From assembly GCA_040285855.1 (NCBI GenBank), contig JAUFOQ010000013.1, positions 806,001 through 870,000 of the forward strand: a stretch of 64,000 bases of DNA, in the 5' to 3' direction. Position 1 is the stretch's first letter; the number at the start of each line of letters is the position of its first letter. Under the pieces are notes generated by a model. The model ran no database searches. It was not told the origin of the DNA and saw only the letters and a program-made list of their open reading frames with translations. The DNA is from Eukaryota sp. GEM-RC1. Lineage: Eukaryota. Shown here one piece after another: positions 2,103 through 50,339 of the stretch. Position numbers and translations under genes: made by a program.

Positions 2103-2351
2103 TTATATCGCAGCTGTAACAAAACAAATATAATCGAATTCAATGACAAAAAGGTCTCCATCGCGAGAGGCTTTGACCAGGTCCTGCAGAGCATAGTTTT
2201 CTGTCCTCTCTTCAAGACAATCGATACGGCAAAGGGGACATTGATTCAAGGACTCTAAACATACAGAGCAACAAGTATGTCCTTCGCAGCAGATTAGGAG
2301 GGGAACACGGTTAGAGAGATTGAACGATTCACAACAAACGAAGCAGTCCAT
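2103..2351 (-). CDS. Stand-alone RING-HC mini-ORF (82 aa), a truncated derivative of the RING-kinase family; may be a pseudogene
   Basis: MDCFVCCESFNLSNRVPLLICCEGHTCCSVCLESLNQCPLCR..ALQDLVKASRDGDL matches the N-terminus of 45873-47807. Homology stops at about 2152, just before the kinase. Confidence 0.6.
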   Translation of the reverse strand: MDCFVCCESFNLSNRVPLLICCEGHTCCSVCLESLNQCPLCRIDCLEERTENYALQDLVKASRDGDLFVIEFDYICFVTAAI

Positions 2352-2980
2352 GTTGAGAAGTGATTTAGCTTCAATTTTGGACAACTCTGTCAACGAGTTC
2401 TTTGTCTAAAAAGAAGGTCTTATACAACAATAGTTGTGGTCTTGGTAAGAAGATTAGAGTTGTATATACAATCTCGTTTGATCTAAAAACTACAAATTTC
2501 TCGAAACAATTGGTTTCTGGAATGTGCGTATTGACGGTCCTGAGTTTTATGAATGTAGTTTTCTTCAACTATCACTTACACACCCATCCATCCTATCTAA
2601 TGATTGTCTCATTATGTCAATTCTTCTCTATCATTTTCAAGGGCGTGCTGGCTGACTTTTTTATATCACATCATTCATTTTTTGAAAAAAAGAGCATGTT
2701 TAAGAAGAAACAGTTAGTAACAAGTGTTGGAAAGATTACAAATCTGGCACAGTGTTTGTTTTCGTTAGATGTTTCTGTTGTATGTGCTTTCATCCATGTC
2801 CATTTGCTCAAAAAAGACAAACGTGCTTCCCTTAAGTTCCAATTGATTCGTAGAACCTTTCAAATTTGGTCTAATCTTCATACTCTCATTATTGATGTCT
2901 CTGCTGTTTTCATTCTTATGACTTTTATTTAGAAGAAGTATTTTATTACAAAAAAAGCACACTGAGAATTTGCCACACAA

Positions 2981-5622: not shown

Positions 5623-8439
5623 TCAATCAAAACATAAGAAGTTAACAATAGAGAATTCGCATGAGATCCGATTATTTGAGATTCTTTTGATGAGTTGTTC
5701 AGTCTCAGAGTCAATAGAGTTACTCCAAAGAATAATCTGAGTAACAGTGGAATTGACCTTCAAAGCATCAGCCAATGCAATGGCACCCTCATTACCAATA
5801 GAGTTATTCATAAGATATATCTCAGTAACAGTGGAATTCACCTTCAAAGCTTCAGCCAGTGCAATGGCACCCTCATTACCAATAGAGTAATACTTAAGAT
5901 CAATTTTAGTAACTGAACCATTCCTCATTTCTTCCAAAACCTGGCTCAATACTACAGTACTATTGTCCCTTTTTTTAGCTAATAATTGTGAAAATTTGTT
6001 CTTTGGCTTTGGAATTAAACCTTGAGAACTTCTAGAAAGAGGTGTTGCAATAGAGTTTTCACAAATTTCATTATTAGCAGGGTTGGATTTAAGACGTTCA
6101 ATTTCTTCTCTTAAAGAACGATTGTCAGTTTCCAAATTTAAAATTTGTTGACTAGAAGACTTTTCCTTGACGTGAAGCTCATTGTTTAGAGTAGTAATAC
6201 TTTGAATTTTTTGGAAAAGTTTAGAATTTTCATTTTTCAAGTTTAAAACTTCATCAGTGAGGTTCTTCTTTGCTCCCACCAGTTCGGTCCTCAACTTTGC
6301 CACGTCAGCAGTGAGTGTGGCAGTCGATGATTGGATTTGAAGAGGGACCATTAGGAGTAAGAATCTGCTCAGTAAAGGTTCAATATCGACGTCATCAAGT
6401 AAATCAGACAAAGTCTCAGAAATAACGTTTACAGTCTTTAAAGTACACGTTATGGATTTCAAACAACTATCGAACTGTGACATTGTCCAATCAGATTTTA
6501 AATTCTGCCAGGAATTACACAAACATTTGGCAAGAAAAACAGAATCAACATTAAAAGAAGAAAGAATTTCAAATATTTCTGGAGTTACTTTGATACCATT
6601 ATTATCAGTAGATTTGATTGATCTGAGACGTTGTTCATGTTTTTTAACAAACATGAGATCATTTAAAGAACTTGCTTGTTCAATAAATCCTGTATCAAAA
6701 TTAACTTCTATAAAGTTATTTCCAGCAGTAACTACTGACTTTACTTGAAAATAGGATCCTAAATAGGTCAATTCATAAGCATTTTCAGTAGTCAATTTGA
6801 TTCCACTTCCACTCAAGAACCCAAAAACTTTTGAAAACTTTCTACTGACACCTTCAGTATATCATCAAAGCTAAGTTCTTGTTCATTTGAATCAGCCCAT
6901 TGACTAGTCCAAAGGTTAGCAAAGTACTTAGAATAACAACATAAGTGAAGCCTATTTGTTTTAGCAATATAGTCTTTATACTTCAGTTGCACTTCATGAG
7001 GAGTTTCCCTCTTCAACTTTTCTAGAATAGTTGATCCTTGGAGAAAGAAGACTTTGTTACTAGACTGTAGTCCCTTTAGTTGAAGGTTGGTGCAGTGGGA
7101 GATCAAAGGAGTGTACTTTAAGAGTTTTGCGATCACATGAATGTCAAAGAGATTGGTTTCGTTGATGTCTAAAGGGGAGCCGTACATGGACAACATAATG
7201 GCTTCAAAGATCGAGGGATCTTCAACCATTCCCGAAGAGTTGATTTCAACGTGATCATGGTGATCTAGTTTTTCAAGGTATTTGGAAAAGAGAATGACAA
7301 TGGAGAAGTGACAGTGGAACTCTAAGTCCTCGAACTCAATAACACAGTCAGTGAGATGATTGTTGGATCGGAGATATTGTAGCTGTTCGATGGCTTCCTT
7401 GGCAAAAGTCAGATATGGAGAGCATTTGGGGGAGATTTCATACAACTTTGACTTTGTAATTATTAGACCTTGGAATCGGATCAACTTCGGATCGGATAAT
7501 CCGATCGGATTTCTCGGATCGGAGCGATTTTGTTGCTTTTGCTCGGATTCCGATTCGGATCGGATTTATCCTACCAGATCCGAAATATCCGATCGGATTT
7601 CTAATGATTTTGATACTGTTGTAGACCCAAAATACATTTGATTACTTTACTAATACTAATATAGATACATTAGTTGGTATCATTTAGTTATTATTTTTAC
7701 AAAAGTAATTACTGAATTTCACTGTATTGATCGTAAACCCCGTTTCTGTACTAATATTACTAGTTATATAAAACGATTGATTTGAAAATCTGACTGTTGA
7801 ACATGATTACGACTACGTCTGTCTCAAATGTCCTACTATTCCGCTGTAGATGTTCTCTCGGATTCTGCCGCCAGCAACATCGAAGTCCATTAATTTGGTG
7901 GAAGAGAAATGAAAGCACTTATACCAAACTTGCTCGAATCTTCTTTTATTGTTCAATACATGCATCATCTGTACCATGTGAAAGACTCTTTTCCCGTGTT
8001 GGGTTAATTGTGTCCAAAAAATGAACATCTCTCAAATGTGACACAGTTCAAGTATTGGTTTTACTCAATTCATGAACAAAACTTGGATTTATGGCTGATG
8101 ATAGACTTTTCCCAGGAGATGCCAATTAATGTTACTTTTTGACTAATAAAACTTTGTAGAATTTTGTTATCCTTCCTTTTACAAAAATGAAGTTCATAGC
8201 ACGTCGTTTCTTTATGGAACTAAAACAGTAATCTTACTGCAAAAACTAAAACAGAATTAATGAAATGTATTAGATAAAAAGGTCAATCCGATCGGATCTT
8301 TCGGATCGGATTCGGATATTGAACACCAGGATCCGGATCGGATTCAGATTTCGATCAGTCAGATCCGGATCGGATCGGATTTGAGATAAAAAATCCGATT
8401 CCAAGGTCTAGTAATTATGCTCTCTCGAAGACATATCAT
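5623..8439 (-). CDS. BTB-BTB-coiled coil-LRR protein, interrupted near its start by a hAT insertion (7464-8410) and a frameshift at ~6825
   Basis: Joins ORFs 6813-7484 and 5623-6816. Two BTB domains, coiled coil LTDEVLNLKNENSKL.., and three 28-aa LRRs (SIGNEGAIALAEALKVNSTVTEIYL). The ATG at 8439 corresponds to 845 in copy 1. Confidence 0.8.
7464..8410 (+). mobile_element. Non-autonomous hAT DNA transposon, 947 bp
   Basis: 17-bp TIRs TAGACCTTGGAATCGGA / TCCGATTCCAAGGTCTA and a perfect 8-bp TSD GTAATTAT (7456-7463, 8411-8418). The empty site is at 817-824. TCGGA subterminal repeats and a hAT dimerisation relic PLIWWK..LAR..ASSVPCERLFSRVG are present. Confidence 0.97.
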
Positions 8440-9706: not shown

Positions 9707-9955
9707 TTATATCGCAGCTGTAACAAAACAAATATAATCGAATTCAATGACAAAAAGGTCTCCATCACGAGAGGCTTTGACCAGGTACTGCAGAGCATTG
9801 TTTTCTGTCCTCTTTTCAAGACAATCGATACGGCAAAGGGGACATTGATTCAAGGACTCTGAACATTCGGAACAACAAGTATGTCCTTCGCAGCACATTA
9901 GGAGGGGAACGCGGTCAGAGAGATTGAACGATTTACAACAAACGAAGCAGTCCAT
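9707..9955 (-). CDS. Stand-alone RING-HC mini-ORF, copy 2
   Basis: MDCFVCCKSFNLSDRVPLLMCCEGHTCCSECSESLNQCPLCR, with the same truncation point and tail as 2103-2351. Confidence 0.6.
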   Translation of the reverse strand: MDCFVCCKSFNLSDRVPLLMCCEGHTCCSECSESLNQCPLCRIDCLEKRTENNALQYLVKASRDGDLFVIEFDYICFVTAAI

Positions 9956-10591
9956 GTTGAGAAGTGATTCAATTTCAATTTTGGATAACTCTGTCAACGA
10001 GTTCTTTGTCAAAAAGAAGGTCTTATACAACAATAGCTGTGGTCTTGGTAAGAAGATTAGAATTGTTTAAATCGTATACACAATCTCTTTTGATCTAAGA
10101 ACTACAAAGTTCTCGAAATAATTGGTTTCTGGAATGTGCGTATTGACCGTCCTGAGTTTTACGAATGTAGTTTTCTTCAACTATCACTTACACACCCATC
10201 CATCCTATCTAATGATTGTCTCATTATGTCAATTCTTCTCTATCATTTTTAAGGCGTACTGACTGACTTTTTTTATATCACGTGTCATTTTTTCAAAAAC
10301 AGAGCATGTTTAAGAAGAAACAGTTAGTAACAAGTGTTACAAAGATTACAAATCTGGCACAATGTTTGTTTTCGAAAAATGTTTCTGTTGTATGCGCTTT
10401 CATCCATGTCTTTTAACTCAAAAAAGACAAAAGTTCTTCTCTAAATTTCCAATGAATTTGTAGAACCTTTCAAATTTGGTCTAATCTTCATACTCGCATT
10501 ATTCATGTCTCTGCTGTTATCATTCTTATGACTTTTATTTAGAAGAAGTATTTTATTACAAAAAATAGCACACTGAGAATTTGCCACGCAG

Positions 10592-13649: not shown

Positions 13650-16107
13650 ATGGTATGATCGTTGTCCGACTGACTCCAGCTTATATTCGACTCATCTGAC
13701 TCTGAAAAGGACCTTGGTGAATACTCCTCTCTGAGTATAGCTCCCCAAACAGAAGTGAAAGCTCACAGTCATGTTCAATTCGTCCAAGAGCTTGAACCCA
13801 TCCCTGTTTATCTGTTTTCAATGCGTGATAATGTCTCACTCATCCCCAATTACATTTCCCTTCTCAAACAAAGCATTCCTTCTGATCATCCCTTCATTTC
13901 TGTAGATTCAGAATGGAGACACAATACATTGGATGTACTCCAACTTGGAACTCCATCAATTTGCATGGTCATTCAGATCCACGGCGTTGTTACGTTGCAT
14001 CAAGATATCAGAGATATAATTGTCGATTCCAACATCATCAAGGTGTTCAAAAAGCAGGATCAAGACATTAAACGAATCAAGGAACTCTGGGGTGTTGATG
14101 TTGTGTCACCGTATGATGTGGAACCGTATTTCCTCACCATTGGAAGGATTTATGCCATCAAGGTTGGGAAAGGAAGAACCGAGTTAGGATCTCCATCCCA
14201 TCCACTCTCAACGTTTACTGCCCATGGATACACTCTGTTATCCACGAAGAGCAAGGACATTACGATGAGTAATTGGAGTGCGGAAATCCTGAACGAGATA
14301 CAGATTGAATACGCTGCTCTTGACGCTTTCTGGATCGCCTTCAACTACTATCTAAAGATATCAAACAGGATAACTGGTGATCCAACGAAACATTCCTGTG
14401 TTTTCTTCTCCGATTCATCACATGCTCAAGTTTTAGAACATCCTTTCGAGACCATTCAACTTTTGTCTGCTCAATCTACAACATGGCTGAACACGTTAAA
14501 ACCGTTTTGTTGTGATATTCACTCAGATGAACTTCTCATGAAACAATATAATAAAACAAGTAAACAGAAACAAAAGAAAATCGGTCCTCAAGCTGTACGT
14601 TCTCTTGCTTCTGTTCTTTTCAATATTCTCTCTGATCCTTTAAACTCTAGTCAAGTTCAAACTCTACAACCTTCACAAGATTTTTTCTTTCTTCTTTGAA
14701 GACCGAGAAGTCACGCCTGCTTCAATCGTAAACTTGTGCGTTAGGCTTCTTCTTCCATTGTTGTCTAATTCAACCGTGTCTAAAAGGTTACTTGCAATTA
14801 CTACTCCACTGAAGTATCCTGTTTATGTTCTTTCAGTTGCCTATAATCTTCTGGCTCTTGCTCTTGACTCTTCATCATTAGTTAGTGTTGAACAACTTAC
14901 AGTAACCAAGGAAATGTTGTCTGGTGAGGTTATTTCTGGTGTTATAGATAAGAAATTAGACAAAAAGTTGACTCATCTTTGGACAACAAGTGCTAAATGC
15001 TGTTCTGTCTGTTCAGATCTTCCAAATGCCAGTTTCTTTAGTATTACTGATACTAACACAGAAGCTGAGGTTGCAATTCAAACTCTATTAAAATCTATTT
15101 CTCCAACAAATCCTAGAGTTACAGTCTTTGCAAGGTCTGCAGTTAAAGTAATTGATCAAATTATTTTGGCTTCTGACACTGTTATTTTAAATTTTGAAGT
15201 TGGAACTGACCATGTAATTCTCCCTCTTTTACTTGATTTATTTTCCAATGACGTCATTTCTAAAGACTTCGTAGGACTTTCTTGTACTCCTCAAGATGTG
15301 GCTGATTTTTTCTTTTTACAGAACTTTACCAATGTTGTTGATCGATCTTCTTTAGTTCCAAGATCGGTGCTAGATTTAATCGAGGCCAATCCCCACAACA
15401 CTTCAAAACACTTGCCCAAACTTTCACTTCTATTTGTGTCTGAATTCCAGCAGTTCATAGTGATTTCCTGTGTATTGGAACTTTTTGCTAGTCTGACGTT
15501 TACTTTACAATACTTTTTCAAAAACAATGGCATTAACCTACCAGCACAATCATTTGTTAAAAATCTTAATGAACCTTCTTCTTGGATACAGAATCTAGCA
15601 TGTCAAGAATCCAATCTTAAGGCTAATAGAAATATTACAGTTTTTCCCTCTGATGCGGTGAGTAATCTTAATGACGTCATCTATCAAAGCGATGTTCTCG
15701 GACTTGCGGTGGTTCCTATTACTAAGTCCAGAAAGAAAAATCCAGTGTTTTGGTATGTTGAAGAGAAGTTTGTCACTCCTTCGTTATTGCACGCTTTGAA
15801 ATTATTTAAAAAATTGAAAATGTGTGATAAGCTAAATGTACGTCACCTCGAAGGCCATCCCATTCAAATTAAGATTTGTTTTAAAAAATTGTCTGAATTG
15901 TTGGCTGTTGAACTTTTATTTGTTAAGGATGATACTTTTAGACAAGATCTATTATCAGTAGAGTTTCACCAGAGTGGTGAATCTGCCTTTGCTGAACTTA
16001 AAACCTTAATTCAAGAAAAGAAATGGGCTCTGCGGCAGAATTCATCTGAAAGTAATGAACAAAATGTTCCTTGTAATGATTCTGACAGTGAAGTGGATGA
16101 TGATTGA
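13650..16107 (+). CDS. DEDDy 3'-5' exonuclease (WRN/EXD2-like) with long C-terminal extension; 27-nt intron 13653-13679; +1 frameshift in 14644-14697
   Basis: ExoI ISVDSEW, LQLGT, ExoII QDQDIKRI and ExoIII MSNWSAEILNEIQIEYAALDA. The start reads ATG|GTATG..CTGAC..CAG|CTT, which restores MLIFDSSDSEK in frame. Confidence 0.85.
13653..13679 (+). other. 27-nt spliceosomal intron
   Basis: GTATGATCGTTGTCCGACTGACTCCAG has a GTATG donor, CTGAC branch point and CAG acceptor. It contains in-frame TGA stops and sits directly after the ATG. Confidence 0.85.
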
Positions 16108-17286
16108 TTAAATGTATAATCTGCAGTCCTTCTTTAAAATGTATTCTACTTCATATACTTAATGTAATTAGTGTCTTTTTAATCTTCTTTTGTGTGTTGA
16201 AATGACCACACCTTTGTTTTCGCAAAAACTACAAACACAAGCAATATTTTGGACTGTCAGATGTAAGACCTCCCAGTCTTGACACTAGAAGGTCAGCTCT
16301 CAACTGTGTAATTAAGTGAGACATACTCCGTATTATGGTTTAACTCGGTCAACATCCAGCTTGTTAGAGAATAACACATAAATAAACTTAATTACTTGCT
16401 CCTATTGTAACTTTACTTCTATTCTCAAGTTCATTTAATCTATAGTGTTTTGAGAATGAAGAAACCTCAATACATTTTCGTAACATTGTTTCTTACATCT
16501 TTTGCTTTTTTGTAAACAACTCTTAATTTATTTACTCACATTTGTGTTTATCTAGGAACGACACACATATACATGTAAAAGCTAACCAAACAAATATCAA
16601 TATACTCAATGTGCAACTTTCCCATTTGGACATTCTCACCTACCTTATCTTCATAATGTCTGTCGAGATACAATAAGACGTTAGACACAGAAGTCACAAT
16701 TCTTTAAAATCACCAAATACAAATCCATTGTTTCCAAAATCTAAGATCAAAAGTCCTGGATGTTCTTTCTTTTCAATTTTTACACAGCTCTCTAGTAATG
16801 ATGTAAATGATTCGCACACCATGATGTATCCATACACCATCCAAAAGATTATCTTTAAAGAGACGATGCGATGCGTGAACACTAGGATCAGTACAGGACT
16901 GATCTGATTGAAAAGCAAATTCGAAACAATTTGTTGAACAAAATGTGGAAATTGAATACGAAAACCAAGCTCATGAAACACAAAGCAGCTCAATGGCTGA
17001 CTTGACTCAAAGCCACGGAAAAGAGTTCATTTGCTTTGGTTGGGATAAAATTCACAGAAATATAGATGAATCGGTTGCTTTGAGCAATCGAGTAGGTCTT
17101 TTCAACAATTATTCTTTTAGATTTACATGTTTAATAAAGTAAATATTTATTTGGATCTGAAAAAGTTGGGATTTAATTACATTGGGACCTTTTCAAAAAA
17201 GCCCCAACTATCCCAACTGTCTTCAGCCCAACATTTTTACAAATACGGTAAAGATATTACTTGTATTTTGATTAGCAAACTGTACA

Positions 17287-18220
17287 ATGGACATCGTAGA
17301 TAATCCATTTATCTTAACAAATTTCTGTACCCTTTCTACTCATTTTCCCTTCATCCATATGATCAAATGTACCGATTCAAATGGATATACTTGTATATTA
17401 GGACATTCTGACGGTTCTGTCACTGTTCATCATCTTAAAGATGACAAATTCATATCTTCCCCTTCAGAATCATTTGCACTAAGGAATGCCATGAATTTAG
17501 ATGGATCTTCTTCTCCCAGCAGCAACGAGATCAAATCTGTAGCAATATCCTCACCAGACTATGGCCAGTTTTTTGCCATAGCATCGCAAACCCCTGAACT
17601 TCTCATATTCAAACAAACCGAACAAATAGCCAGCCTAGAGATACCTCATCCAGCAACAAAAGTCCAGTTCTCTCCCGATTCATTCAGATTATACGCAGCA
17701 GTCCATAACTACGTTTATGTCTTTTGGAATAGATGTTCAATGGACTCTCTTAGATCAGATAGAGTTCGATTCCCCAATTGTTGACATCTTCGTGTCTCAT
17801 CAAGATTATCTAGCCGTTGCTACTTCCACAGAATATGATTCAACCCTCATCCTCCTAGGTAAGTCCCCTTCTGGAGCCATGTCAATCTACCACTCAGTTG
17901 ATATCTCTTCCCAGGTATCAAAAGTATCTATATCTCCCTTGGTTTTCGATGATACAGACGCCAAAACCAGTACTGTATGTGTGGGGCTTCTTGATGGTTC
18001 TGTTTACTTCTACCCCTTCAATCTGGTAACTAATCGTCTTCAGACTCCTGGTAATCTGCAGGGATCTCATGCAGGGGAAATTGTAGATATTAAATGGTCG
18101 TTCTTGGGTGATTACGTGATGACGTCAGCAAGTGACAAGTCAGTGTTGAAGTTTGGTGTTACTGCTGAACATGGTTATGAACTGGGATTTAAGATTGATG
18201 TTTCTGATACACTGTCGTAA
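17287..18220 (+). CDS. WD40 protein, Seh1/Sec13-like; +1 frameshift near 17722
   Basis: Joins ORFs 17287-17784 and 17717-18220. Motifs SPDYGQFFAIAS (cf. HPEFGQxLASCS), VQFSP, and HAGEIVDIKWSFLGDYVMTSASDKSV. Confidence 0.7.
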
Positions 18221-19680: not shown

Positions 19681-22600
19681 CTAATAAGGATAATAATGAT
19701 GTTCATCATCAATGGAGTACGCTGCAAAAATGTGATCCCAGATCTTACTGTCATTCGAGTCTACTTTACTGACAATGGCGAGAGGAGTCTTACCTTTGAG
19801 ATACTCGTACATTGGATCAAAGTGACGACCATTCTTGAGAGGGCAAATAAGCAGTGCAATACCAAGTTCCGTAGCCTTGAGTGCAATATCATCAAATCTA
19901 GATTCCCAAGTACGACCATTAGGATCTTGAGGATGATTGTCTTCACAACCACAGTTAAATCTCTTACCATGATTAGGTGCATCCCCAATAACAAAGATAA
20001 TTCGATGACCATTAGGCCATTTGGCTTTTAACATTTCATCTAATCCAGTACAGATATCTTCTGCAACGTCATCACCTCCATCAGCAACAACTCCTCCAAT
20101 GGCATTCGAGAGAGCTGTCGCATTACCAAAAGGAATAAGTTCAACAGGAACTGAATCTCCAATATCACGATAGGCACAAACTAAGATTAATTAAAAAAAG
20201 AATAAACATACATGAAAAGAAACTGTTAATTTCTTGGCATCATACCCCATTGCACCAACAGACCGGGAGATATACTCCTCCAAGCCTTTCGCCATTTCTC
20301 TGATTTGATTTGCAGTTTGTTGAATATTCATGGAACTAGTGGCATCGAAAACAAAAGCTGCATATAAAGATAGATCGAGACGATGTTTGACATAATCAGC
20401 ATCAGAAATTCTGACAGCCAAGGAAAAAGGACCATCACTTGATTTACTTGGAAGTAGAAGAAGTTGGATTACTAGGAGGTTTGTCAATACTAACTTTCTT
20501 CCCCTTAGGATGAATCACGTCAGTAGACTTCTTATCAACAGGACCAGCCCAAACCTTTCTTGGAGTAATTCTTTCCTTAGAGGTGTTAAGCTCAATGTGA
20601 GTGAAACTTGCGTAGGAATAGCTACTACCACTTTCGAGTTGAACTTTGATTTGAGAAGTAATGTTGCTAGAGTTTCGGAGGTTCTTGGAAATAATAAAAA
20701 TTTTGTCAAATTTAAATTCTAACCCATCATCAATTCTTTCAATACAAATATCACCTGTCACCTTATTGATCTTAATTCCAAAACGAATATACTTATCGGC
20801 CATTCTCTTTACAAAGTACATTCGAAGTGTTGCTAGAGTTGGAGTATCAGGATTTGGATTAGCAGATTCGTAAACAGATACATATCCATTGTTAAAACTA
20901 AAAGTGATGGGACATTCACCATTAACTAAACTAAGGATGAAGCTACCTGTAGCATTGACATCGAATCTAATGCACAATTCACGTTCAAAGGAGCACGATG
21001 CCATTAAGTAAGCCCATCGATGATGACTCTGAGGTGTAAGAAGTATGTTGAAACCATACTCTAGTTCCTCTTCGTTGTTATAGCTAGCTTCAATCATTTT
21101 GTTTAGATAATCAGGAGAATCAAAAGAATCTGTTAGAATCAAGAAGTTTGCTTTTCCTCCAGATAGTAGTTCAAGGTCGTGTTTGGCTCGAAGACTTAGT
21201 GTGGCATAGACATTTCTCGGTATGACAACATGTTCGACATCACTAAAGGAAATCTTACTCGGAAGATGGCACTCAATAGTGAAATGATTATCTGGTTTCA
21301 GAATTGATTGAACAAATATCTCCTTTGTAACTGAAGAGATATTAAACGCTGACAGGTCCACCTTCGAATGTTCTTTCATGTTCTTAAGAGAGTGGCACAT
21401 ATCAAGAGCAACAGTTTCAGCAGCACCGTTGACTCCAAAATTCTGAACTAATTTGTAATAATTGTTCTTTTTTTCAGTTTCATCAGTGGGAATTCTAATG
21501 TAAGGTCTAAATGGAACTGCTCCATCATGAGTATAATACTTAGTAGCAGCAGTGACATGAAGATAAGTAGAAGGATGCTTCGTAACAGAAGACTTAAAGA
21601 TAACAGCAATCGGTCCATAGTGAACGTTAGTATTAGGTCCTAGAATTGAAAAGACTGTACGATCAGTACGAAGATCTTTATCAACATGGAATCCGATTCC
21701 TACCTTAGCTCCAGATTCGTCAGGAGCACCAACTAAGTGATTCAAATCAAGAGCTGCTTGAGCAATGTTCTTAGCTAAACGACCGAGTTCAGAGCGTTCT
21801 TCCTTTGAGACATCAGTACATTCCATTAGAACACGCATACCATCTGGACAAGTCATTGTCTTATTCAACAAACCATTCATTTCTATCTCAGTAGAGACAG
21901 CTAAGAAATCAGCAGCTTGTTCTTGGTTGGAGTAGTTTACTAATTGATAATGAGAGGCGGCAACAATCTGACGGACTTTAGCAGGGTCTGCAAGCTTGGT
22001 CTTCATCATATTAAGCGAGTAGAAAGCTCCATGAGTTAGACAAGATTCAAAGGTTTCTGGTTTAATTCGATGAACTGGACGGAGTCGCATTAACAATTCC
22101 CCAAGAGCTTTAATGTTTCTAGGTGTAGGAGATTTGGGAAGGAGTGACTGTAAACGGCGCTGATTGCTGACGTAATCTAACTTGCTTTCACCAGAAAACG
22201 TTCCAATATCAGGCATTAAGTTTCCCAGTATTTCAAATAATCTGATATTTCGATGAGAATATCTACGAACATGATCCAAGTCTCCTCTGTTTCTACAAGA
22301 AGCTCCATGACTACAAGGAGGACGGAATTCCAAAACACCTGGATGACTAAAGGTGTTCAAATGAATCTCGTCAACTGACTTACAACTGGTACCATCAGGA
22401 CATGGCTTCCGTTCTAAATGAGCGAACTTCTCCATGTGACTTTTAGTTGTCATCTCCGTACATTGGAAACCTCGAGGACAGACAATCTTTTCAGATGCAG
22501 AAGAACTGAAAGGATCATCAGCCAAATGGATTGGATGGGTGACGTCAGCTTGATGAAGGACAGTGAGGTCAACACAGTTAGGATTAGGGCAAGTCAAATG

Positions 22601-25600
22601 GTCATGATGTTTGAATTTAAGACAGTCTGCATCACGGCAATTATGACCTTTTTCACAGATCGGACGATGCCAGAAGCTTTCTCGATGATCAGGAGTTTGG
22701 TCCTTGCAGAGACTTCCGTGATGACAGGCTAGTGCATGAGTAAAGCTCAAATCATGACTGGAATCACGTTGATGTAGTCGGCAAGTGGAGAACTGTCGAC
22801 AAACAGATGGATGACGACACAACCACGAGTGAGTGTTGATCTGTTTTCTCTTACACTTATCAGACAACTCACATCGGTCAAGATGAAAGTAAATTTGTTT
22901 ATGCTCTTCATCATTAAGCTGAGTACATCTTCCAAAGAGGTCAGGACATGGAATGAAGGAGGTTGGAGTCATTAGAGGAGAACAAGACCGATCCATTCCT
23001 CGTCTGAATCTGGTAAAACTTTCTACATCACCTACTACACTGAAGATAACTCGTTGGAAGAACCTACCATAGATTTGTTCCATGAAACCCAGAATAGCCA
23101 TGACTGACTCAATGGGGTTTCTAAAAGCACCACAACCCAAAGGGGATATGATTAAATGAGTAACATTGTGACGAATAGCAGCAAGGAAGATTGAAACCCA
23201 ACGATTAAAGGTAAATTCGAATTGTTCCTTATTCAGGAAATCATCAAAACGAATTTCTGACATGGGTTTAATATCAGGACGTTCAATAGCAGCTGAAGAG
23301 ACAACATCAATAGTATAAGGTCGAGAAAGAGTCACAAGACCATGTGATTCAGAACTTTTGAAAATTTGAATATTTTCAGAAACAATTACATCAATGTCAC
23401 TACTTGACCAAGGATATTTGACAGGAGGAATTCTACTTCCTTCAACATTAGAAGAATCAAGAGCATAAGCCAAAGTACTCCTGCTAAACAGACTTTCTTC
23501 TTGAGCACTAGCTCCAGTTCTATACCCTCCTCCAGGAGAAACTTCAGTAGCCATGTTAAGACAAGCAATCTTTACTCCAGGATCAGTACCATATTCGTTG
23601 ATGAAATCAATGGCGACTTCAAAGCAATCCTTATTTAAAAAATCAAATGGACCAGGACCAGGGTCTGGAGCGGGGGGTCTTTTGAAAGCCCTACGAATAG
23701 AGGAGTTTGAGTACACGTGATTAGTGATTTGATTAGTCCTTAAAGCAATCGTTTGGGAACTGTTTTCACCTTCTCTAACGTAAGAATATTGACCTCTTGA
23801 ACAGCAGTACAAGGTATTCAGTTGAGCAATGACCAACAAGAATCTGTAGGGGTGATTGTTACGTAAGTCACGATTACATTCTTTGAGAGCAGAAAGATAA
23901 GGTGCAAAAGAATGATCATTAAGCTGAATCCAAGATCGGTAATTAGAAATGGCTATTTGCTCGTAGCCACCAGTTCTGCTTCTCATTTCAGATGCAAAGA
24001 CCTTAGGGAAAGGTGAATTAGGAGAAAACATCTGTACTACTACCTTAGTTAAAGGATGGCCCTTGATAACGATTTCGTTAGGCCAAGTAGGAGTAGTACT
24101 AGTCCAGAGCAACACGTGTCTTTTAGTAGGATCAGTAGTCAAATAAGAGTTCTTTCTAACACAAGGATTAGCGGCAGATAGAGCAGCTAGATAATCATCT
24201 GTGGGTTCTTCAAAAGGATAGTAAACAACTTCGAGGCAACTAGAGTGGTGAGCGTAGTGTTGGAAGGGAAGGACAGTGAAATGAAACTTGTCTATTTTAC
24301 CAGCGTAAAGACAATCAGCAGTAGATCTTCCTTTAAAAATAGACTCAGGAGAAAAGACAGTAGATGATAAGAACAAAAGTTCAAGATTGTAAAATCTGTT
24401 GTTGACGTGATGTTTGACAATATCAACATTAATGGTTTCCTTATCAATGTTGTTTCTAATATCTCTAGAAACCCTATCAACTATATTTGAAGGAACAAAC
24501 ATGACAGTAGCCCGATAACATCCTTTGAAGGTTGTAATGGTCCTGGATTTCGTATTAATTGTAGCTTCAGCTCCATTAACTATTAATTCTTGTAGAAGTT
24601 CAAGACCTATAGCACAAGACACAGTGACACGAACGTGGACAATGGAATCCAAAGACTCAAGAACCTCTACTGCATGGTCAGCACAATCACTTAAGGTTTT
24701 GGTTAAGTAAACGTCAACTTTAGAAGTAAGAGCAGCACCCTTAAAGTCCTCTATTCGCATGAAGAACTCAAACGAAATGGAATAGAACTCTTCAGATCTT
24801 TCAGTTGGCACGTGATCATCAAACACTTTGACTCTCAGAGACTTGAATTGTTCAGACAGAGAGGGATTTAGAGGGCGAATTGTAGAGACGATTGGAGAGT
24901 CTCTCTGGGCAGCTAATCGTTCGATATCATTGGTATGTACGAACATTAGAGGGTGTGAGGGAGAAGTAGCTGGGACAGTATTAGTATTTAACAACTTTGA
25001 TTGGTTATGATGGAGCTGCTGCAGATTAATCTTTCTCAAATCACCACTTCCACTAGTCAAAGCCATTTTGTTATTCTTAAGTTGTTCAGACGGTCGGAGA
25101 TTAAAAGATTCTAAAATTTCAATTATTTGTACAATTTTGGGTCGTAGAATTGGGTCGGGGTTTAGACACCTGTTAATTATACTACACAATACATCCGGAA
25201 TTGACCTATTAAAGGACAAAGCTTTGTCACGATATTTAGCTCCCATTACAGCATATTGGCTCATTCCTTCAAATGCTTCCTTGTTTTGGAAACAATTCAT
25301 ATAACATGATTCCAATAGAGTAAATGTCACTTTGCGGGGTCATTTGGTTGTCAAACTGCTCAGGAGCAGCATAGCGTACAGTCATTGCATTGTTTCTTGG
25401 AACTGTTGTGGTTGATTCAATGTTCCGAGAAGTTCCGAAATCAGCAATTCTTACTCTATTATCCACCAATAAAACATTTCCAGGTTTGAGATCGCCATGC
25501 ACAACTGCTTTACTGTGGAGAAAGCTAACACCTTGACAGAGTTGTTTCGCATAATCGACAGTGAGAAAGGAGAATGAGTTGGGGGAGGGAAGAGAAGAAG

Positions 25601-26052
25601 TAGCTCTTTCCATGACAATTCCGATCCTATCCTCCCAAAAGCAGAGACCATAGACACGGAGAACAGCAGGGTGATTTAGTTGAATAAGAAGGCTCATCTC
25701 CTTCTGGAGCTTTAGTCTTCCTTTTTCAGTAAGTGATATCATTTTAACAGCAACAGGAAGTTGGAACCACTCTGCAGCATAGACAACTGCAAAACCTCCT
25801 TCATCGATCTTGTTAAAAAGCTTGATTTGATTCGATGGGATTTCAGGACAGAGATCGCCATTACGAGCAGCTTCGATGAGCTCTCTAAGAGAATAATTAG
25901 GTTTTTTTAACAAGGGGGGAATCTGTGCGGCATATTGGACATTGTTTCAAAGAGGATGCACATTGAGCACAAGCGGTATGTCCGGAGTCACATAAAAGTA
26001 ACGGTAAGCGCTGAGAAAGATTGAATGGCTTACAGCAGGAGAAGCAATCCAT
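19681..26052 (-). CDS. Giant multidomain protein (~2,100 aa): RING-HC, TKL-type kinase, unknown region, bacterial-type PARG (DUF2263/TIGR02452), PBZ-like CCHH array, putative ART-fold domain, beta-rich domain, VWA
   Basis: ATG at 26052 gives MDCFSCCKPF..CDSGHTACAQC..CPICR. After +1 at the A7 run (~25902) come kinase motifs EGGFAVVY, VAVK, HGDLKPGN, DFG, APE. A +1 at ~25290 leads into the 1628-aa ORF with LNMA..PGGGYRTGASAQEE and LGCGAFRNP. A +1 at ~20450 leads into VWA (FDATSSM, YRDIGD, GGDDVAED, IGDAPNHG), with an intron at ~20181-20211. Confidence 0.8.
20181..20211 (-). other. Short intron (27 or 31 nt) in the VWA region
   Basis: Minus strand reads GTATGTTTATTCTTTTTTTAATTAATCTTAG. The GTTTAT donor (27 nt) restores SFHVFCAYRD directly. 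The GTATGT donor (31 nt) needs one more base upstream. Confidence 0.7.
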
Positions 26053-27200: not shown

Positions 27201-28076
27201 TTAAATTGTCAATATCGGAGCACACCCCTGATCAATATCCAAAACAATAACATTATTAATTGTAGCAGATGTTTTAGTAAAGAACTTCACAGCTTCTTGC
27301 GCTGCAAACCCTCCAATAGTCATTGCACAAGGATAAAGAGTGGGAGAATCGAAATCAGCAACAGCTCTCGAACAAGACTCTTCAATACCATTAGACAGTT
27401 TCGAGGACAGTCGTGGAAGAACATTCGCAGTCACCTCAGTAACAGAAGGTAGGGGTTTACCAAGAAAATAGTTACTAAGAAGGAGGAGAGAACAGCCAAT
27501 GTAAGGGGAGATTCTACGGGGGAAAGTTAGAGAGTTGAGCTTACTAAGAACTGTGTTAAGATTAGTGTAGGTTACAGAAGAGCGTTGATCCTCGTAAACA
27601 AAGGAAAAATCCAGAAAGTTGAGAGCTACTATACCTAATCTACAATGTGACCAACACCAAAGATGAGCGATTTTCTTGGAGTTCAATGAATCGAAAAGAG
27701 AAGTGTCAACATGCTTATCACAGAATATGACTAAATCTTCTTGATTTGGGTCAAGATCAGATTGGACAGAAACTTTACAATTTGGGTTAAGTTCTTGCAG
27801 AGGTCCAAGAGCTGATGAAGATCTGGGAGAACCAATAGATTTGGGGGAGAGGAAGTAGGAGGAAGTAAGGTCATCCTCAGTAACCACATGATTATCTACA
27901 AGAAAAATGGATCCAACACCAGTAAGGATAAGGTTTTTGGCTACTTCTAGTCCTGTTGGTGTTAAGGAAAGGATCCAAACACGTCCTTGTTTTAAACGAC
28001 TTTGAGCTTCTAAACCCCATACTCGAATTTGTCTATCATAAAGCTCTGCTTCAGTTTGTGATACAGATGTTGTCAT
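27201..28076 (-). CDS. SAE1: SUMO-activating enzyme E1 subunit 1 (Aos1/SAE1, ThiF family)
   Basis: EAELYDRQIRVWGLEAQSRL, GLEVAKNLILTGVGSI, LQELNP and IGGFAAQEAVK; 291 aa. Confidence 0.85.
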   Translation of the reverse strand: MTTSVSQTEAELYDRQIRVWGLEAQSRLKQGRVWILSLTPTGLEVAKNLILTGVGSIFLVDNHVVTEDDLTSSYFLSPKSIGSPRSSSALGPLQELNPNCKVSVQSDLDPNQEDLVIFCDKHVDTSLFDSLNSKKIAHLWCWSHCRLGIVALNFLDFSFVYEDQRSSVTYTNLNTVLSKLNSLTFPRRISPYIGCSLLLLSNYFLGKPLPSVTEVTANVLPRLSSKLSNGIEESCSRAVADFDSPTLYPCAMTIGGFAAQEAVKFFTKTSATINNVIVLDIDQGCAPILTI

Positions 28077-28152
28077 GAGAATAGATTCAATGTTTGATTG
28101 AATGAGTTAGTTTTGGGTTCCAAATTTTCGAACTTTTTCTTCCTTCACATAA

Positions 28153-29454
28153 ATGCAAAGATTTTTCGAACCCAAACAGTCAAGGTTTTCTGAACCTAGA
28201 CAGAAGAAAGCCAACACTGGTCTGTCATTGAACAGCGTCCCTACTTGGAAGGACTACTCTCACAACATTCCATGTCCCAAGAATCCTCATTTCCCCGTAA
28301 ACGACGATATCAACTCCAAAGTGTCTCTGTGGAAAGGCGATTCCACTGCTCTCAAAATCGATTCCATTGTCAACGCTGCTAATCAATCTCTTCTTGGAGG
28401 AGGTGGTATCGATGGCATTATCCACACCAAAGCAGGTCCTAAACTGCGTAGATTTTGCCAGACTCTTAATGGCTGCAGAACTGGTTATACTAAGAAATCT
28501 CCTGGCTTTAACCTTCCTTGCCAATACATTCTTCACACCGTTGGTCCCATTGGTGAACGTCCTGCAGAGCTACATTCCTGTTACCAAACCATTCTTGAAC
28601 ATATTGATGGGGATACAATCCGATCTACCGCCTTTTGTGGAATTTCTACTGGTATCTATGGGTATCCTATTAACAGTGCTGTTCACATTGCTCTTAAAAC
28701 TGTTAGGGAATGGTTGGAGATCCCCGAGAATTTGGAGAAAGTTGATCGTTTGGTCTTTGTAGTGTTTGATCACGCATCTGTTGAGGCTTATCATCGGTTT
28801 TTCCCAATCTACTTCCCTCATTGCATTGATACTAATCCTGTAGAAGACTCTGATAGTCAAAGTGATGAAGAAATTGAAGAAATTGTTGCTAGTTGCTCGT
28901 CATCTGATGACCTGATCACACAGTCAAGTGAAGAATCAGCAGAGGAAGTAATAGAAGAAGGTGTTGAAGACAGACATGAAGAAGAAGCAGATTGTGAACA
29001 ATTTGTAGTTGAAGAGAAAATGGAATCAGCTGAAGTTGATCTTGTTGAAGACAAAACTGAACAAGAAGCAGATTGTGTACAACCTGTAGTTGAAGAGAAA
29101 ATGGAATCAGCTGAAGTTGATCTTGTTGAAGACAAAACTGAACAAGAAGCAGATTGTGTACAACCTGTAGTTGAAGAGAAAATGGAATCAGCTGAAGTTG
29201 ATCTTGTTGAAGACAAAACTGAACAAGAAGCAGATTGTGTACAACCTGTAGTTGAAGAGAAAATGGAATCAGCTGAAGTTGATCTTGTTGAAGACAAAAC
29301 TGAACAAGAAGCAGATTGTGTACAACCTGTAGTTGAAGAGAAAATGGAATCAGCTGAAGTTGATCTTGTTGAAGACAAAACTGAACAAGAAGCAGATTGT
29401 GTACAACCTGTAGTTGAAGATCAAGAAGAACCAACAATGATGTCCGATGAATAA
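28153..29454 (+). CDS. MacroD1/2-type ADP-ribose glycohydrolase macrodomain with acidic tandem-repeat tail
   Basis: VSLWKGDST, IVNAANQSLLGGGGIDGIIH, ILHTVGP and ISTGIYGYP. Confidence 0.92.
   Translation: MQRFFEPKQSRFSEPRQKKANTGLSLNSVPTWKDYSHNIPCPKNPHFPVNDDINSKVSLWKGDSTALKIDSIVNAANQSLLGGGGIDGIIHTKAGPKLRRFCQTLNGCRTGYTKKSPGFNLPCQYILHTVGPIGERPAELHSCYQTILEHIDGDTIRSTAFCGISTGIYGYPINSAVHIALKTVREWLEIPENLEKVDRLVFVVFDHASVEAYHRFFPIYFPHCIDTNPVEDSDSQSDEEIEEIVASCSSSDDLITQSSEESAEEVIEEGVEDRHEEEADCEQFVVEEKMESAEVDLVEDKTEQEADCVQPVVEEKMESAEVDLVEDKTEQEADCVQPVVEEKMESAEVDLVEDKTEQEADCVQPVVEEKMESAEVDLVEDKTEQEADCVQPVVEEKMESAEVDLVEDKTEQEADCVQPVVEDQEEPTMMSDE
28978..29419 (+). repeat. 81-bp coding tandem repeat (27 aa, ~5.4 units)
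   Basis: Unit EQEADCVQPVVEEKMESAEVDLVEDKT starting at 28978 (diverged), 29059, 29140, 29221, 29302 and 29383 (partial). Confidence 0.97.
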
Positions 29455-35487: not shown

Positions 35488-37249
35488 ATGTCTCCCAAGC
35501 CAGAATCCACAACATCAAAATTTAGACATTTAGTCTCGATTGCTCCACAATTCCAAGGCTCTCCCACAGTATCCCCTGTAGAAATTGGTACCGAATCGGT
35601 AGTCGTTCATCCAGCCCCCTCTATTTCAGCAAAGGAATCTGATTCTACAACCAGAGTGTGTAGGCCATCCAAGTTCAAAAGATCGATTTGAAAGATGTCC
35701 GTCAATATGTTCCGAAATCTCGTCTACTCAAAGAACGTGAATCCGCCAAATCTGAATCCAGAATTGACCAGATGTCTCCTAAATTGCATCGTACACAGCA
35801 CACCTCTACCACTGCTAGTAATCTTCCTCATCGTGGTATTAACCGAGTCAGAGATTGTCCTCGCCAAGATCTTTATCAACATCCATACTCTAAGAACAAT
35901 ACTAATCAACGTCCTCTTTTCCGTACACTAAAAGTGGCCACGGGTTTGTTGAACAAACTCTCAGAGTCTAACAAAGATAAGATCTTCGATATGGTTGTCG
36001 AAATCTTTAAGAAACAACATGTTTGTACAAAGACTCTTTCAAACAATGACTTCGAACAGTTTAAGTCAGAGTTTGTAACTCTTCTATTTGAAAAGGCTGT
36101 TCTTGAACCTCCTTATGTCAACTTATACTCTCAACTTTGTTTGACGTTATCAAAACAATACCCTATCTTGACAGGTTGTTTAATTGATCAATGTCAGGAT
36201 AACTTTGAGAAATTCTTCATTCAAGATAGTGGAATCTCTGATGAGATCACTGGTTTCCTTGATCAAATCAGGAAAGATGTTTTTTCAACCACATGGAAGT
36301 CACCGAAGCTCAACTTGATGATGAACGGTGTTATAGAAAAGCCCAGTTCAAGGCAAAAGTTTTGGGCAATCTTCGCTTTGTTGCTTCCTTAATTCTTCAC
36401 TCAGTTTTTCCTCCAGGAGTAGCTTCAACAATTACTAAACAATTAGTTCAAAACTTCCAAAAACCACTGGCAATTGAAGGTCTTCTTACTCTATGGACTA
36501 AACTACTTGAATCCGCTGGAATCAATGATTATATTGAGAAAGTCGTGGCTGAACATATTCAAGGATTCTCAACTTGTAAAGACATTCCCGCTAGCGTCCG
36601 TTGTCTATGTGCTAATTGGATGGAAAATTACTATAAGAAAAAAGCTCACCAGCAAGCAGTGATAACTTCTACTCACCATAAGAAGTCTGATGATGGTTTT
36701 GTTGCAGTGGCAGCTATTAGGAGAAGAAAAGCTAGACATGTACCATATACTAAAGAACAAGTCAACAAGTTTGTTAGTAATATTGACTGTATGTCTGTTT
36801 TTGATATTCTTCCAGAGTTTTACAAACTTCAACTGTCAGAACATGAGAAGACTGCTTTTGTCGCTGATCTTCTATTCTACTTTACTAATCAGAACAGATC
36901 TTTGCTTCGAGACAAGTTTCAAGCGATTACTGAAGAACTACTCAAAGATAAGGAAGGATTGACAAAGAATCAATGTGTTACTGGATTGTGTAAGTTCTGT
37001 AAAGAAGGGCAGTATGATGAAGTTTTGGAAGATCTTCCAAACGCTGGCGAGTTTTTGGCACCTGTATTGTCAAATTGGATTGAATCGGGAATTGTAAACA
37101 GGGCACAATTGATTGATTGTTTTGTGAGTGTTGACCCTTATAATCTTTCTGGCTTAGTCACGTCATTTGTTGATTATCGTAGAGAGAGTTATCTTGATTT
37201 TGAGTGGCTGGAAAAGAACGAAAAAGTTTGTAGTATATTATCATCCTAA
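35488..37249 (+). CDS. eIF4G-like protein (MIF4G plus MA3-like C-terminus); -1 frameshifts at ~35665 and ~36280
   Basis: LLNKLSESN, LLFEKAVLEPPYVNLYSQLC, LIDQCQDNFE and KVLGNLRFVASL. The 5' join with ORF 35488 is less certain. Confidence 0.8.
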
Positions 37250-50232: not shown

Positions 50233-50339
50233 ATAATTTTATCAATTTTGGCCTTTGCTCTGATTCTGAGCTAAAACATCGAGTTACAACAATTCTAACC
50301 TCTATTGAATAGTTGTTGGAAATCGAGGTATCGTGTCAT

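What the first reader, a model, noticed from the sequence alone, without database searches (positions are those of the whole stretch)
19681..26052. Single-chain ADP-ribose writer/reader/eraser fused to a RING E3, kinase and VWA
Seen: four consecutive minus-strand frames (the short RING frame is missing from the ORF track) plus a last exon join into one ~2,100-aa gene. The order is RING, kinase with intact VAVK/HGDLK/DFG/APE, ~400 aa unknown, PARG-type macrodomain with intact GGG-x6-QEE and GCGAF, ~9 CCHH fingers, a domain with H..S..E spacing like ART folds, a beta-rich domain, and VWA with DxTxS. Established: DUF2263/TIGR02452 enzymes hydrolyse poly(ADP-ribose), and PBZ fingers bind it. Inference: a self-contained reversible ADP-ribosylation switch coupled to ubiquitination and phosphorylation, built on the same head as the LRR receptors, and so possibly a defence effector or integrated decoy. 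I do not know of a described protein with this architecture.
Basis: partly seen in the sequence, partly recalled or inferred. Interest (0 to 1): 0.9.

Follow-up and report, generated by a model that had tools for sequence, protein, structure and literature searches.

The report
Overlooked eukaryotic ADP-ribose write-read-erase module
This protist gene, split by four frame breaks in the sequence as given, joins a likely eraser of ADP-ribose chains, zinc fingers that likely bind them, and an unlabelled domain predicted to attach ADP-ribose the way some bacterial effector and anti-phage enzymes do; the same trio recurs in rotifers and unrelated protists, so it likely marks an overlooked reversible signalling or defence switch.

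Summary
The domains are real and in the stated order: RING, non-RD kinase, ferredoxin-like units, bacterial-type PARG (intact GGG-x7-QEE), nine PBZ-like fingers, an ART-fold domain, a lectin-like beta-sandwich, VWA. Kinase end through lectin domain is one 1,631-codon frame. There are four single-base breaks plus one intron. Three breaks sit in short homopolymers and are bridged in register by intact paralogs, so they are likely assembly errors. The break before VWA may be genuine. No reads were listed to settle this.

The main result is the 'ART-like' domain. It has no Pfam, NCBIfam, PHROG or PADLOC hit but 179 homologous clusters. Its confident AlphaFold model matches SopF, OspC3/CopC (Z about 12) and DarT (Z about 10). 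It conserves H...D...F...ExHxP like OspC but has Ala where OspC3 has its arginine-activating Asp231. PARG-fingers-ART is the old core: 39 of 56 homologs of 1,000 aa or more carry PARG, from fornicates, Diphylleia and rotifers; phage proteins also carry the ART domain. The RING-kinase head is a recent graft, repeated several times. The full eight-part chain was found intact nowhere. Activity, substrate and defence role are inferred, not shown.

The parts
25900..26052 (-). Start codon and C3HC4 RING finger (likely E3 ligase), same head as the window's RING-kinase-LRR genes
25902..25919 (-). Frame break 1: one base too many relative to intact paralogs, in a C6/A7 homopolymer stretch
   Evidence: P0002 bridges it in register
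25100..25946 (-). TKL-like non-RD (HGDLK) protein kinase, split by break 2; its last subdomains open the long frame
25284..25292 (-). Frame break 2: one base too many in TTT-CC-AAAA
23996..24784 (-). Two (perhaps three) ferredoxin-like alpha/beta units, RRM/ACT-like by fold only; sequence homolog found only in the gene's own cluster
   Evidence: (Z 7.2-7.9, below the trustworthy range)
22970..23992 (-). Bacterial-type PARG macrodomain (DUF2263/TIGR02452), GGG-x7-QEE (Q at 23501-23503) and GCGAF intact
22250..22954 (-). Nine zinc fingers (8 CCHH, 1 CCCH), PBZ-like; 2 match a strict PBZ-type pattern
21080..22174 (-). Unannotated ADP-ribosyltransferase-fold domain of SopF/OspC/DarT type; conserved H1090, S1108, D1220, F1230, Y1241-G, A1264, H1352, E1356, H1358, P1360 (long-frame numbering; E1356 at 21272-21274)
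20567..21061 (-). Concanavalin-A-like (legume lectin/galectin/SPRY-type) beta-sandwich; ligand unknown
   Evidence: Z 12-13.5, rmsd about 3 A, about 150 aligned
20444..20460 (-). Frame break 3 and TAA stop in the S/T/P linker before VWA; not in a run of 4 or more, shared with paralog P0009, possibly genuine
20212..20450 (-). VWA exon 1 with MIDAS D-A-T-S-S, followed by a 2-residue deletion relative to paralogs; break 4 (one base short, T4 run at 20215-20218) at its end
20181..20211 (-). 31-nt intron-like segment GTATGT...TTAG containing the in-frame TAA
19681..20180 (-). VWA exon 2 (AYRD, GGDDxxED, GDAPNH intact); C-terminus shorter and divergent relative to P0010

Best explanation
This locus is a recently re-headed copy of an old eukaryotic gene whose core is a likely self-contained ADP-ribosylation switch: a SopF/OspC/DarT-fold domain predicted to transfer ADP-ribose from NAD+, PBZ-like fingers that likely bind the mark, and a bacterial-type PARG that likely removes it. 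Shown: domain order, one open frame from the kinase end to the lectin domain, intact catalytic motifs, the recurrence of PARG-fingers-ART in distant eukaryotes, and several independent kinase grafts. Inferred mechanism: the ART uses E1356 (ExHxP) for NAD+ chemistry. It lacks the Asp that activates arginine in OspC3, so it likely does not ADP-riboxanate arginine. Because its fixed partners cleave and read O-linked ribose-ADP-ribose, it likely writes an O-linked mark (acidic residue, adenosine 2'-OH of RNA, or oligo-ADP-ribose). PARG in the same chain would keep the mark low until a trigger, sensed through the lectin-like, ferredoxin-like or VWA parts, tips the balance. The grafted RING/non-RD-kinase head, taken from the expanded RING-kinase-LRR receptor family, would convert that state into ubiquitination and phosphorylation. 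The likely setting is cell-autonomous defence or conflict. Breaks 1, 2 and 4 are likely assembly errors; whether VWA is still translated in this copy is about even.
For: Fold: AF2 model pLDDT 87, pTM 0.88; VIA Z 12.2/rmsd 3.8/215 aligned to SopF, 12.0/4.5/224 OspC3, 11.9/5.2/237 CopC, 10.3/3.5/175 Thermus DarT, 10.1/3.6/184 DarT1; Foldseek SopF E 4.5e-5. Motifs conserved in 76-82 of 82 full-length domains and collinear with the invariant OspC-family H, S, D, F, ExHxP; E325/H327 are catalytic in CopC (PMC9239266, section 12 and passages). PARG with ART in 40 of 157 homologs, 39 of 56 of 1,000 aa or more; Pfam PF10021 in 30 of 83 scanned. Intact paralogs bridge the junctions: P0002 RING-kinase-fingers-ART-lectin; P0005 and P0010 PARG-to-VWA; Carpediemonas P0006. 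Partner domains elsewhere are immunity-like: GBP, LRR-Roc-COR, RING, WWE, a second ART. Phage contigs carry the ART domain. Housekeeping genes in the window are also frame-broken (MIF4G, WD40).
Against: No activity data. Sequence profiles do not link the domain to OspC (hhalign probability 0.9%, score 20.6 against 11.5-19.3 for 20 controls) or to any PDB ART; residue equivalences other than ExHxP were read by hand from motif order. Z 10-12 came from a two-domain model and ties SopF, OspC and DarT, so protein and nucleic-acid substrates cannot be told apart. 116 of 157 homologs show no PARG (many are short fragments), and close paralogs P0002/P0003 lost it, so the eraser is dispensable. 11 of 40 PARG+ART proteins miss the GGG-QEE pattern. 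The window's fingers fail Pfam PBZ. No intact protein with all eight parts. One conserved PARG Arg is Ser here (R619).
Confidence: 0.6

Rival explanations
1. The copy in this window is a young chimeric pseudogene or partly decayed duplicate: the breaks are real, and only the 1,600-aa frame or nothing is made. The family itself would still be real.
For: Four breaks in 6.4 kb. Break 3 is shared with P0009 on another contig and is not in a long homopolymer. VWA has an in-frame 2-residue deletion next to MIDAS, a divergent C-terminus and lower identity to paralogs (76-87% against 90-94% for ART/PARG; P0007 vs P0010 VWA 86%). The family is expanding and reshuffling.
Against: 4.9 kb of unbroken frame; 0 of 29 and 1 of 35 conserved positions changed; breaks 1, 2, 4 keep exact length against paralogs and lie in short homopolymers; unrelated genes such as an eIF4G-like MIF4G gene are broken the same way.
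Confidence: 0.2
2. The module serves DNA or RNA damage and anti-toxin housekeeping: PARG and fingers clear or follow poly(ADP-ribose) made by ordinary PARPs or by ART toxins of prey bacteria, and the ART-fold domain is an NAD+/ADP-ribose-binding or DarT-like DNA-marking unit, not an immune output.
For: PBZ occurs mainly in DNA-damage proteins (PMC4245714 passage); bacterial PARGs protect against RNA-targeting ART toxins (PMC11833690 passages); DarT matches cover about 83% of DarT; a MacroD hydrolase gene lies 2.1 kb away.
Against: No BRCT, PARP or helicase partner was seen at E<=1e-4 in the 83 homologs scanned, while GBP, ROCO, RING and kinase heads were; repeated head swapping and copy expansion fit conflict better than housekeeping.
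Confidence: 0.25
3. Integrated decoy: the ADP-ribose domains are bait for a pathogen's effector and the RING-kinase head signals when the bait is touched.
For: Same head as the LRR sensors, with the body in the sensor position; non-RD kinases mark pattern-recognition receptors in plants (PMC3411088 passages); at least three different graft points or bodies for this kinase family (window, P0002/P0003, P0018).
Against: Catalytic residues of both enzymes are intact and under constraint; the whole multi-enzyme body, not one domain, was captured.
Confidence: 0.12
4. The head-to-body join is an assembly chimera between a RING-kinase gene and a P0007-like gene.
For: Multi-copy, 85-93% identical families are prone to mis-joins; no reads could be laid.
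Against: A unique, stop-free linker of about 45 codons joins kinase and body in frame; the head is only 63-82% identical to the other kinase copies seen; similar grafts exist at other points (P0002, P0003, P0018, P0026).
Confidence: 0.05

Closest known systems
OspC3/CopC arginine ADP-riboxanases (PF06128) and SopF
   Same: ART fold (Z about 12, 215-237 aligned); collinear H, S, D, F, (F/Y)G and identical ExHxP motif; Asp at the D177/D172 position.
   Different: No significant sequence-profile match; Ala instead of D231/D230; extra conserved His four residues before the Glu; no ankyrin domain; eukaryote-encoded and fused to an eraser, whereas riboxanation resisted the host hydrolases tested (PMC8883491 passage).
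DarT/DarG and DarT1/NADAR toxin-antitoxin pairs
   Same: ART fold (Z about 10, 175-184 aligned); writer genetically tied to a macrodomain eraser; phage-linked relatives.
   Different: One chain instead of two genes; eraser is PARG-type, not DarG/NADAR; helical insertions; no Pfam or PADLOC DarT hit; DNA substrate untested.
PARP14/PARP9-DTX3L (recalled, not checked by a call)
   Same: Writer, reader and macrodomain eraser in one chain with N-terminal RRM-like units and a link to a RING E3; innate-immunity context.
   Different: Every part is from another family: non-PARP ART, PARG instead of MacroD-type eraser, PBZ instead of macrodomain/WWE readers, own RING and kinase. Convergent, not homologous.
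Adineta vaga bactPARG with PBZ repeats
   Same: PARG plus PBZ array in a bdelloid rotifer, noted in PMC4245714 (passages); rotifer homologs here have PARG-fingers-ART (P0051), so probably the same family.
   Different: The passages seen mention no transferase domain; the ART, lectin-like, VWA and kinase parts are not described there.
RING-kinase-coiled coil-LRR genes of this window (45873-47819, 60562-62562)
   Same: Same RING and non-RD kinase head (about 63% identity).
   Different: LRR sensor replaced by the 1,700-aa ADP-ribose body.

Membership tests
Bacterial-type PARG (DUF2263/TIGR02452) | Profile match above curated cut-off | tested here: met
   PF10021 53.5 bits (cut-off 23.5), TIGR02452 63.7 (50)
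Bacterial-type PARG (DUF2263/TIGR02452) | GGG-x6-8-QEE catalytic loop and GCGxF loop on a macrodomain fold | tested here: met
   GGG-x7-QEE, GCGAF; Foldseek E 1.6e-13 to T. curvata PARG, VIA Z 21.6/rmsd 3.1/222 aligned to D. radiodurans PARG
Bacterial-type PARG (DUF2263/TIGR02452) | Hydrolyses poly(ADP-ribose) | not testable with these tools
   Needs assay
PBZ finger (PF10283) | Pfam match of the window's fingers | tested here: not met
   0 families at E<=0.05
PBZ finger (PF10283) | CCHH spacing and family-level homology to APLF PBZ | tested here: met
   8 CCHH fingers; profile A1 vs APLF tandem PBZ E 2e-7; PF10283 in homologs such as P0014, P0028, P0052
ADP-ribosyltransferase superfamily | ART fold with His on strand 1 and catalytic Glu | tested here: met
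   Predicted model only; all non-lectin rows among the 50 best VIA matches are ARTs (SopF, OspC3, CopC, DarT); H 81 of 82, E 78 of 82
ADP-ribosyltransferase superfamily | NAD+-dependent transfer | not testable with these tools
   Needs assay
OspC/CopC ADP-riboxanases | ExH catalytic motif (E326/H328) | tested here: met
   E1356-C-H1358-L-P; hhalign places it in register though not significantly
OspC/CopC ADP-riboxanases | Two catalytic aspartates D177 and D231 | tested here: inconclusive
   By motif spacing D1220 matches D177 (81 of 82) and Ala1264 (76 of 82) sits at D231; equivalence by hand, no residue-level superposition
OspC/CopC ADP-riboxanases | PF06128 match and C-terminal ankyrin domain | tested here: not met
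   No PF06128 or ankyrin hit; hhalign not significant
DarT (DUF4433) DNA ARTs | DarT profile match | tested here: not met
   0 Pfam families for the window's domain at E<=2 and 0 PADLOC families for 10 of 10 proteins; fold similar (Z 10.1-10.3)
PARP (PF00644) family | PARP catalytic profile with H-Y-E triad | tested here: not met
   No Pfam PARP hit at E<=1 on the long frame; family has F, not Y, at the second triad site
C3HC4 RING E3 | Eight zinc ligands | tested here: met
   C3, C6, C21, H25, C28, C31, C38, C41; Pfam E 2e-6, just under cut-off
VWA domain with MIDAS | DxS/TxS...T...D | tested here: met
   DATSS, EDICT, GDAPNH; whether it is translated with the rest is open

The most novel reading that the evidence does not exclude
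Eukaryotes hold a second, non-PARP poly- or oligo-(ADP-ribose) system: an unrecognised SopF/OspC/DarT-fold transferase builds 2'-O-linked ADP-ribose chains (on itself, a target protein or RNA) that its own PBZ fingers read and its own PARG erases. It has been kept since early eukaryotes, is shared with phages, and is repeatedly plugged into immune-type heads (RING-kinase, GBP, LRR-ROCO); this locus is one such plug-in, convergent on PARP14/DTX3L.
Probability: 0.2. Interest if true: 0.92.

Novelty: new variant of a known kind. Interest (0 to 1): 0.76.

Why it matters
Intracellular ADP-ribose writers in eukaryotes are taken to be mainly PARPs, sirtuins and Tpt1-type enzymes (recalled). This locus points to another family, invisible to four profile libraries, whose nearest solved structures are bacterial effectors and anti-phage toxins, and which is fused to its own reader and eraser across distant eukaryotes. 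It gives a testable candidate source of ADP-ribose marks for the bacterial-type PARGs and PBZ arrays of protists and rotifers, a natural comparison for the chemistry of the SopF/OspC/DarT group, and a case of protist immune-type receptors capturing an enzymatic module several times.

Tried and rejected
No genome held; no sequencing run listed, so no reads were laid; no relative in metagenome contigs for the ART domain; genome contigs could not be scanned with alignment A1 and was not scanned otherwise, so cellular prokaryotic members are untested. Short introns were considered for breaks 1-3: none gives the paralog frame at 1 or 2; a 37-nt GT-AG candidate at break 3 would remove residues that are coding in paralogs and is not supported. 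Programmed frameshifting has no support: breaks differ in sign and context. Profile links to OspC: not significant; the OspC profile likewise lists neither SopF nor DarT among the 60 of 180 PDB rows shown, so this failure is weak evidence. A1 against PDB sequences found only APLF PBZ. ESM Atlas: best hit 0.83, an unnamed rotifer cluster with PBZ in 31% of members, a lead only; the second Atlas search did not complete. BFVD matches were mostly lectin-like, none decisive. Botulinum/tetanus rows reflect the shared lectin-like fold only (TM 0.2). The region between kinase and PARG has no homolog outside its cluster and was not folded alone. Viral scan with P0108 found nothing. The careful tree did not finish; the quick tree is quoted, with no root or one-clade test, so no direction of transfer is claimed. 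Literature: searches returned no paper describing this ART family or architecture; the library lacks most subscription papers, two papers I sought by recalled id were not obtained, and no supplements were read, so a mention in an ART survey or its supplement cannot be excluded. Earlier scan notes: none. No complex prediction was run.
Full report
Observation. The long frame begins with the last kinase subdomains, so the kinase-to-PARG-to-ART-to-lectin link needs no correction. By arithmetic on the coordinates a fully read-through product would be about 2,110 aa; I did not build it.

The junctions. No genome and no run were available, so the junctions were judged against relatives. A search with residues 1030-1631 gave 6 proteins among 7,208 candidates, and the window protein's cluster has 4 further members; the named ones are labelled Eukaryota sp. 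GEM-RC1 or Carpediemonas membranifera. P0002 is an unbroken RING-kinase-fingers-ART-lectin-fingers protein and crosses breaks 1 and 2 with exactly the window's length if one base is surplus; both sites are short homopolymers. P0010 and P0005 run unbroken from PARG to VWA. Against P0010 the last junction is a 31-nt GTATGT...TTAG intron with one base missing in the T run before it. Unrelated genes in the window are also split between frames: a MIF4G gene at about 36.3 kb, a WD40 gene at 17.7 kb, an exonuclease gene at 14.7 kb, a SHIPPO-repeat gene at 55 kb and a BTB-LRR gene at 6.8 kb. Each overlap holds a run of 4-6 bases, but only the BTB case is pinned by a paralog. Several paralog models also end abruptly (P0003, P0007, P0008). 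Breaks 1, 2 and 4 are therefore likely consensus errors (my estimate 75%). Break 3 differs: it is not in a run of four, and P0009, from another contig, lacks the same C-terminal finger cluster and stops three codons later in the same frame. The window's VWA has a 2-residue deletion beside MIDAS and a shorter end, yet keeps its MIDAS residues and intron signals. VWA belongs to the ancestral gene (7 of 157 homologs, including Carpediemonas and Kipferlia), but may be detached here.

Eraser and reader. PARG passes PF10021 and TIGR02452, matches T. curvata and D. radiodurans PARG by sequence (E 1e-8) and fold, and keeps GGG-x7-QEE and GCGAF. There are 8 CCHH fingers and 1 CCCH finger. They fail Pfam PBZ on their own, but the family profile hits APLF's tandem PBZ at E 2e-7, and homologs pass PF10283.

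Writer. The domain at long-frame residues 1056-1420 has no hit in Pfam, NCBIfam, PHROGs or PADLOC. HMMER over 1.84 billion representatives found 179 clusters at E<=0.001, 150 listed. In 82 of 157 proteins with a full-length domain, H1090 (81), S1108 (78), D1220 (81), F1230 (80), Y1241 (76), G1242 (78), A1264 (76), H1352 (81), E1356 (78), H1358 (78) and P1360 (80) are conserved. AlphaFold2 with 57 sequences gave pLDDT 87, pTM 0.88. Among 48,161 PDB representatives the matches to this part were SopF (Z 12.2, rmsd 3.8, 215 aligned), OspC3 (12.0, 4.5, 224), CopC (11.9, 5.2, 237) and DarT/DarT1 (10.1-10.3, 3.5-3.7, 175-184); the other rows of the top 50 match the following beta-sandwich to legume lectins, galectins and SPRY. 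In 73 of 82 OspC-family proteins with a full domain the invariant residues run H, S, D, F, (F)G, P-x7-D, ExHxP in the same order and similar spacing. CopC's triad is H137-F183-E325 with essential D172 and D230 (PMC9239266, section 12); in OspC3 D231 activates the arginine and D177 drives deamination (PMC11598138, passage). The eukaryotic family keeps H, F, ExHxP and the D177-like Asp but has Ala at the D231 position. That mapping is by hand: hhalign aligns only the ExHxP segment, at probability 0.9%, barely above 20 shuffled or reversed controls. The domain is thus a likely ART of the SopF/OspC/DarT group, not a member of any one of these families.

Family. PARG precedes the fingers and ART in 40 of 157 proteins and in 39 of 56 of 1,000 aa or more (HMMs iterated on the same set); Pfam independently finds PARG in 30 of 83 scanned. 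Of 20 hits looked up, named sources were TZLM1-RC, Kipferlia, Diphylleia (transcript-derived, 1,510-2,156 aa), Rotaria, Didymodactylos, Naegleria and marine protist transcripts; Naegleria's copy has fingers and ART without PARG. In a quick tree of 82 domains, a 17-row clade (SH-aLRT 100) holds the window, GEM-RC1, TZLM1-RC, Carpediemonas and Kipferlia rows, which fits inheritance in that group. P0135 lies in an IMG/VR contig, in a protein with an InPase domain whose PHROG hits include DarB-like and virion proteins, and two further contigs have relatives with HxxxEGHLP.

Heads. The window's RING-kinase is 63% identical to the RING-kinase-LRR genes at 45.9 and 60.6 kb and is non-RD (HGD), a mark of pattern-recognition receptor kinases in plants (PMC3411088, passages). 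The same kinase family is joined at a different point in P0002/P0003 (PARG lost) and to another ART subclade in P0018; unrelated kinases head P0016, P0020 and P0026. Elsewhere the core carries GBP, LRR-Roc-COR, RING-RanBP, WWE or an R-S-E-type ART. The paralog P0007 has the window's body with a low-complexity N-terminus instead. The stretch between kinase and PARG folds as two ferredoxin-like units with modest confidence.

Mechanism (inferred). A writer tied for so long to a PARG and PBZ-like fingers most simply writes what they cleave and read: an O-linked ADP-ribose. PARGs also reverse 2'-OH RNA ADP-ribosylation (PMC11833690, passages), while riboxanated arginine resisted the hydrolases tested (PMC8883491, passage), in line with the missing D231. 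The eraser would hold the mark down until a trigger, and the grafted head would relay the state as ubiquitin and phosphate. The partner domains, copy expansion and phage relatives favour defence or conflict over repair, but neither is tested. Both enzymes look intact in this copy, which argues against a dead decoy.

What is known. PARG with PBZ repeats in Adineta vaga was noted before (PMC4245714, passages); the passages do not mention a transferase. Eight searches found no description of this ART family; PMC11696984 was checked by passages and is not relevant. A single chain that writes, reads and erases is known from PARP14 (recalled), so the logic is not new; the enzyme family, its combination with PARG and PBZ, and its repeated capture by receptor heads appear undescribed. 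Verdict: real, a new variant of a known kind, interest 0.76; the eight-part chain itself is a local and partly unproven arrangement, and the family is the larger finding.

Noticed in passing
window 28153-29454 (+): MacroD-type macrodomain gene (PF01661, 1e-32) with a C-terminal acidic tandem repeat (81-nt unit, 5.7 copies, 98% matches), 2.1 kb from the start of the studied gene and divergently oriented; a second ADP-ribose eraser nearby, perhaps by chance.
   Followed up: partly
window 27201-28106 (-): Intact ThiF-family E1 subunit (Aos1/SAE1-like by recalled similarity) between the MacroD gene and the studied gene.
   Followed up: partly
window 45873-47819 (-) and 60562-62562 (+): Two intact RING-non-RD kinase-coiled coil-LRR genes, 95% identical, in inverted orientation.
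   Followed up: partly
window 2151-2354, 9755-9958 (-); 1-798, 5623-7565 (-): The same RING head without the kinase, lying upstream of BTB(-LRR) genes in what looks like a tandem duplication; the head may be grafted on a third body.
   Followed up: no
window 35664-37249, 17272-18220, 13674-16107, 54316-55813: MIF4G (eIF4G-like), WD40, 3'-5' exonuclease and SHIPPO-repeat genes each split between two frames without an intron, suggesting frequent single-base errors in this sequence.
   Followed up: partly
window 43571-44891 (+): Two frames that look like the end of a non-LTR retrotransposon ORF (recalled motifs; no Pfam hit at E<=0.05).
   Followed up: no
window 50326-50637 (-): Decayed fragment of the same kinase family with an in-frame stop.
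   Followed up: no
L002 6001-9189; L003 and L004 5992-9378: Phage-type contigs (28% GC) encode 1,060-1,130-aa proteins with an InPase domain and this ART domain at the C-terminus, next to a second InPase gene and a sigma-factor-like gene; possibly an injected host-takeover enzyme.
   Followed up: partly
proteins P0028, P0056, P0101, P0075, P0118/P0120/P0152: Other fusions of the ART domain: with an R-S-E-type ART (Rotaria), a guanylate-binding GTPase, LRR-Roc-COR, two WWE domains, and a PF12248 beta-domain.
   Followed up: no
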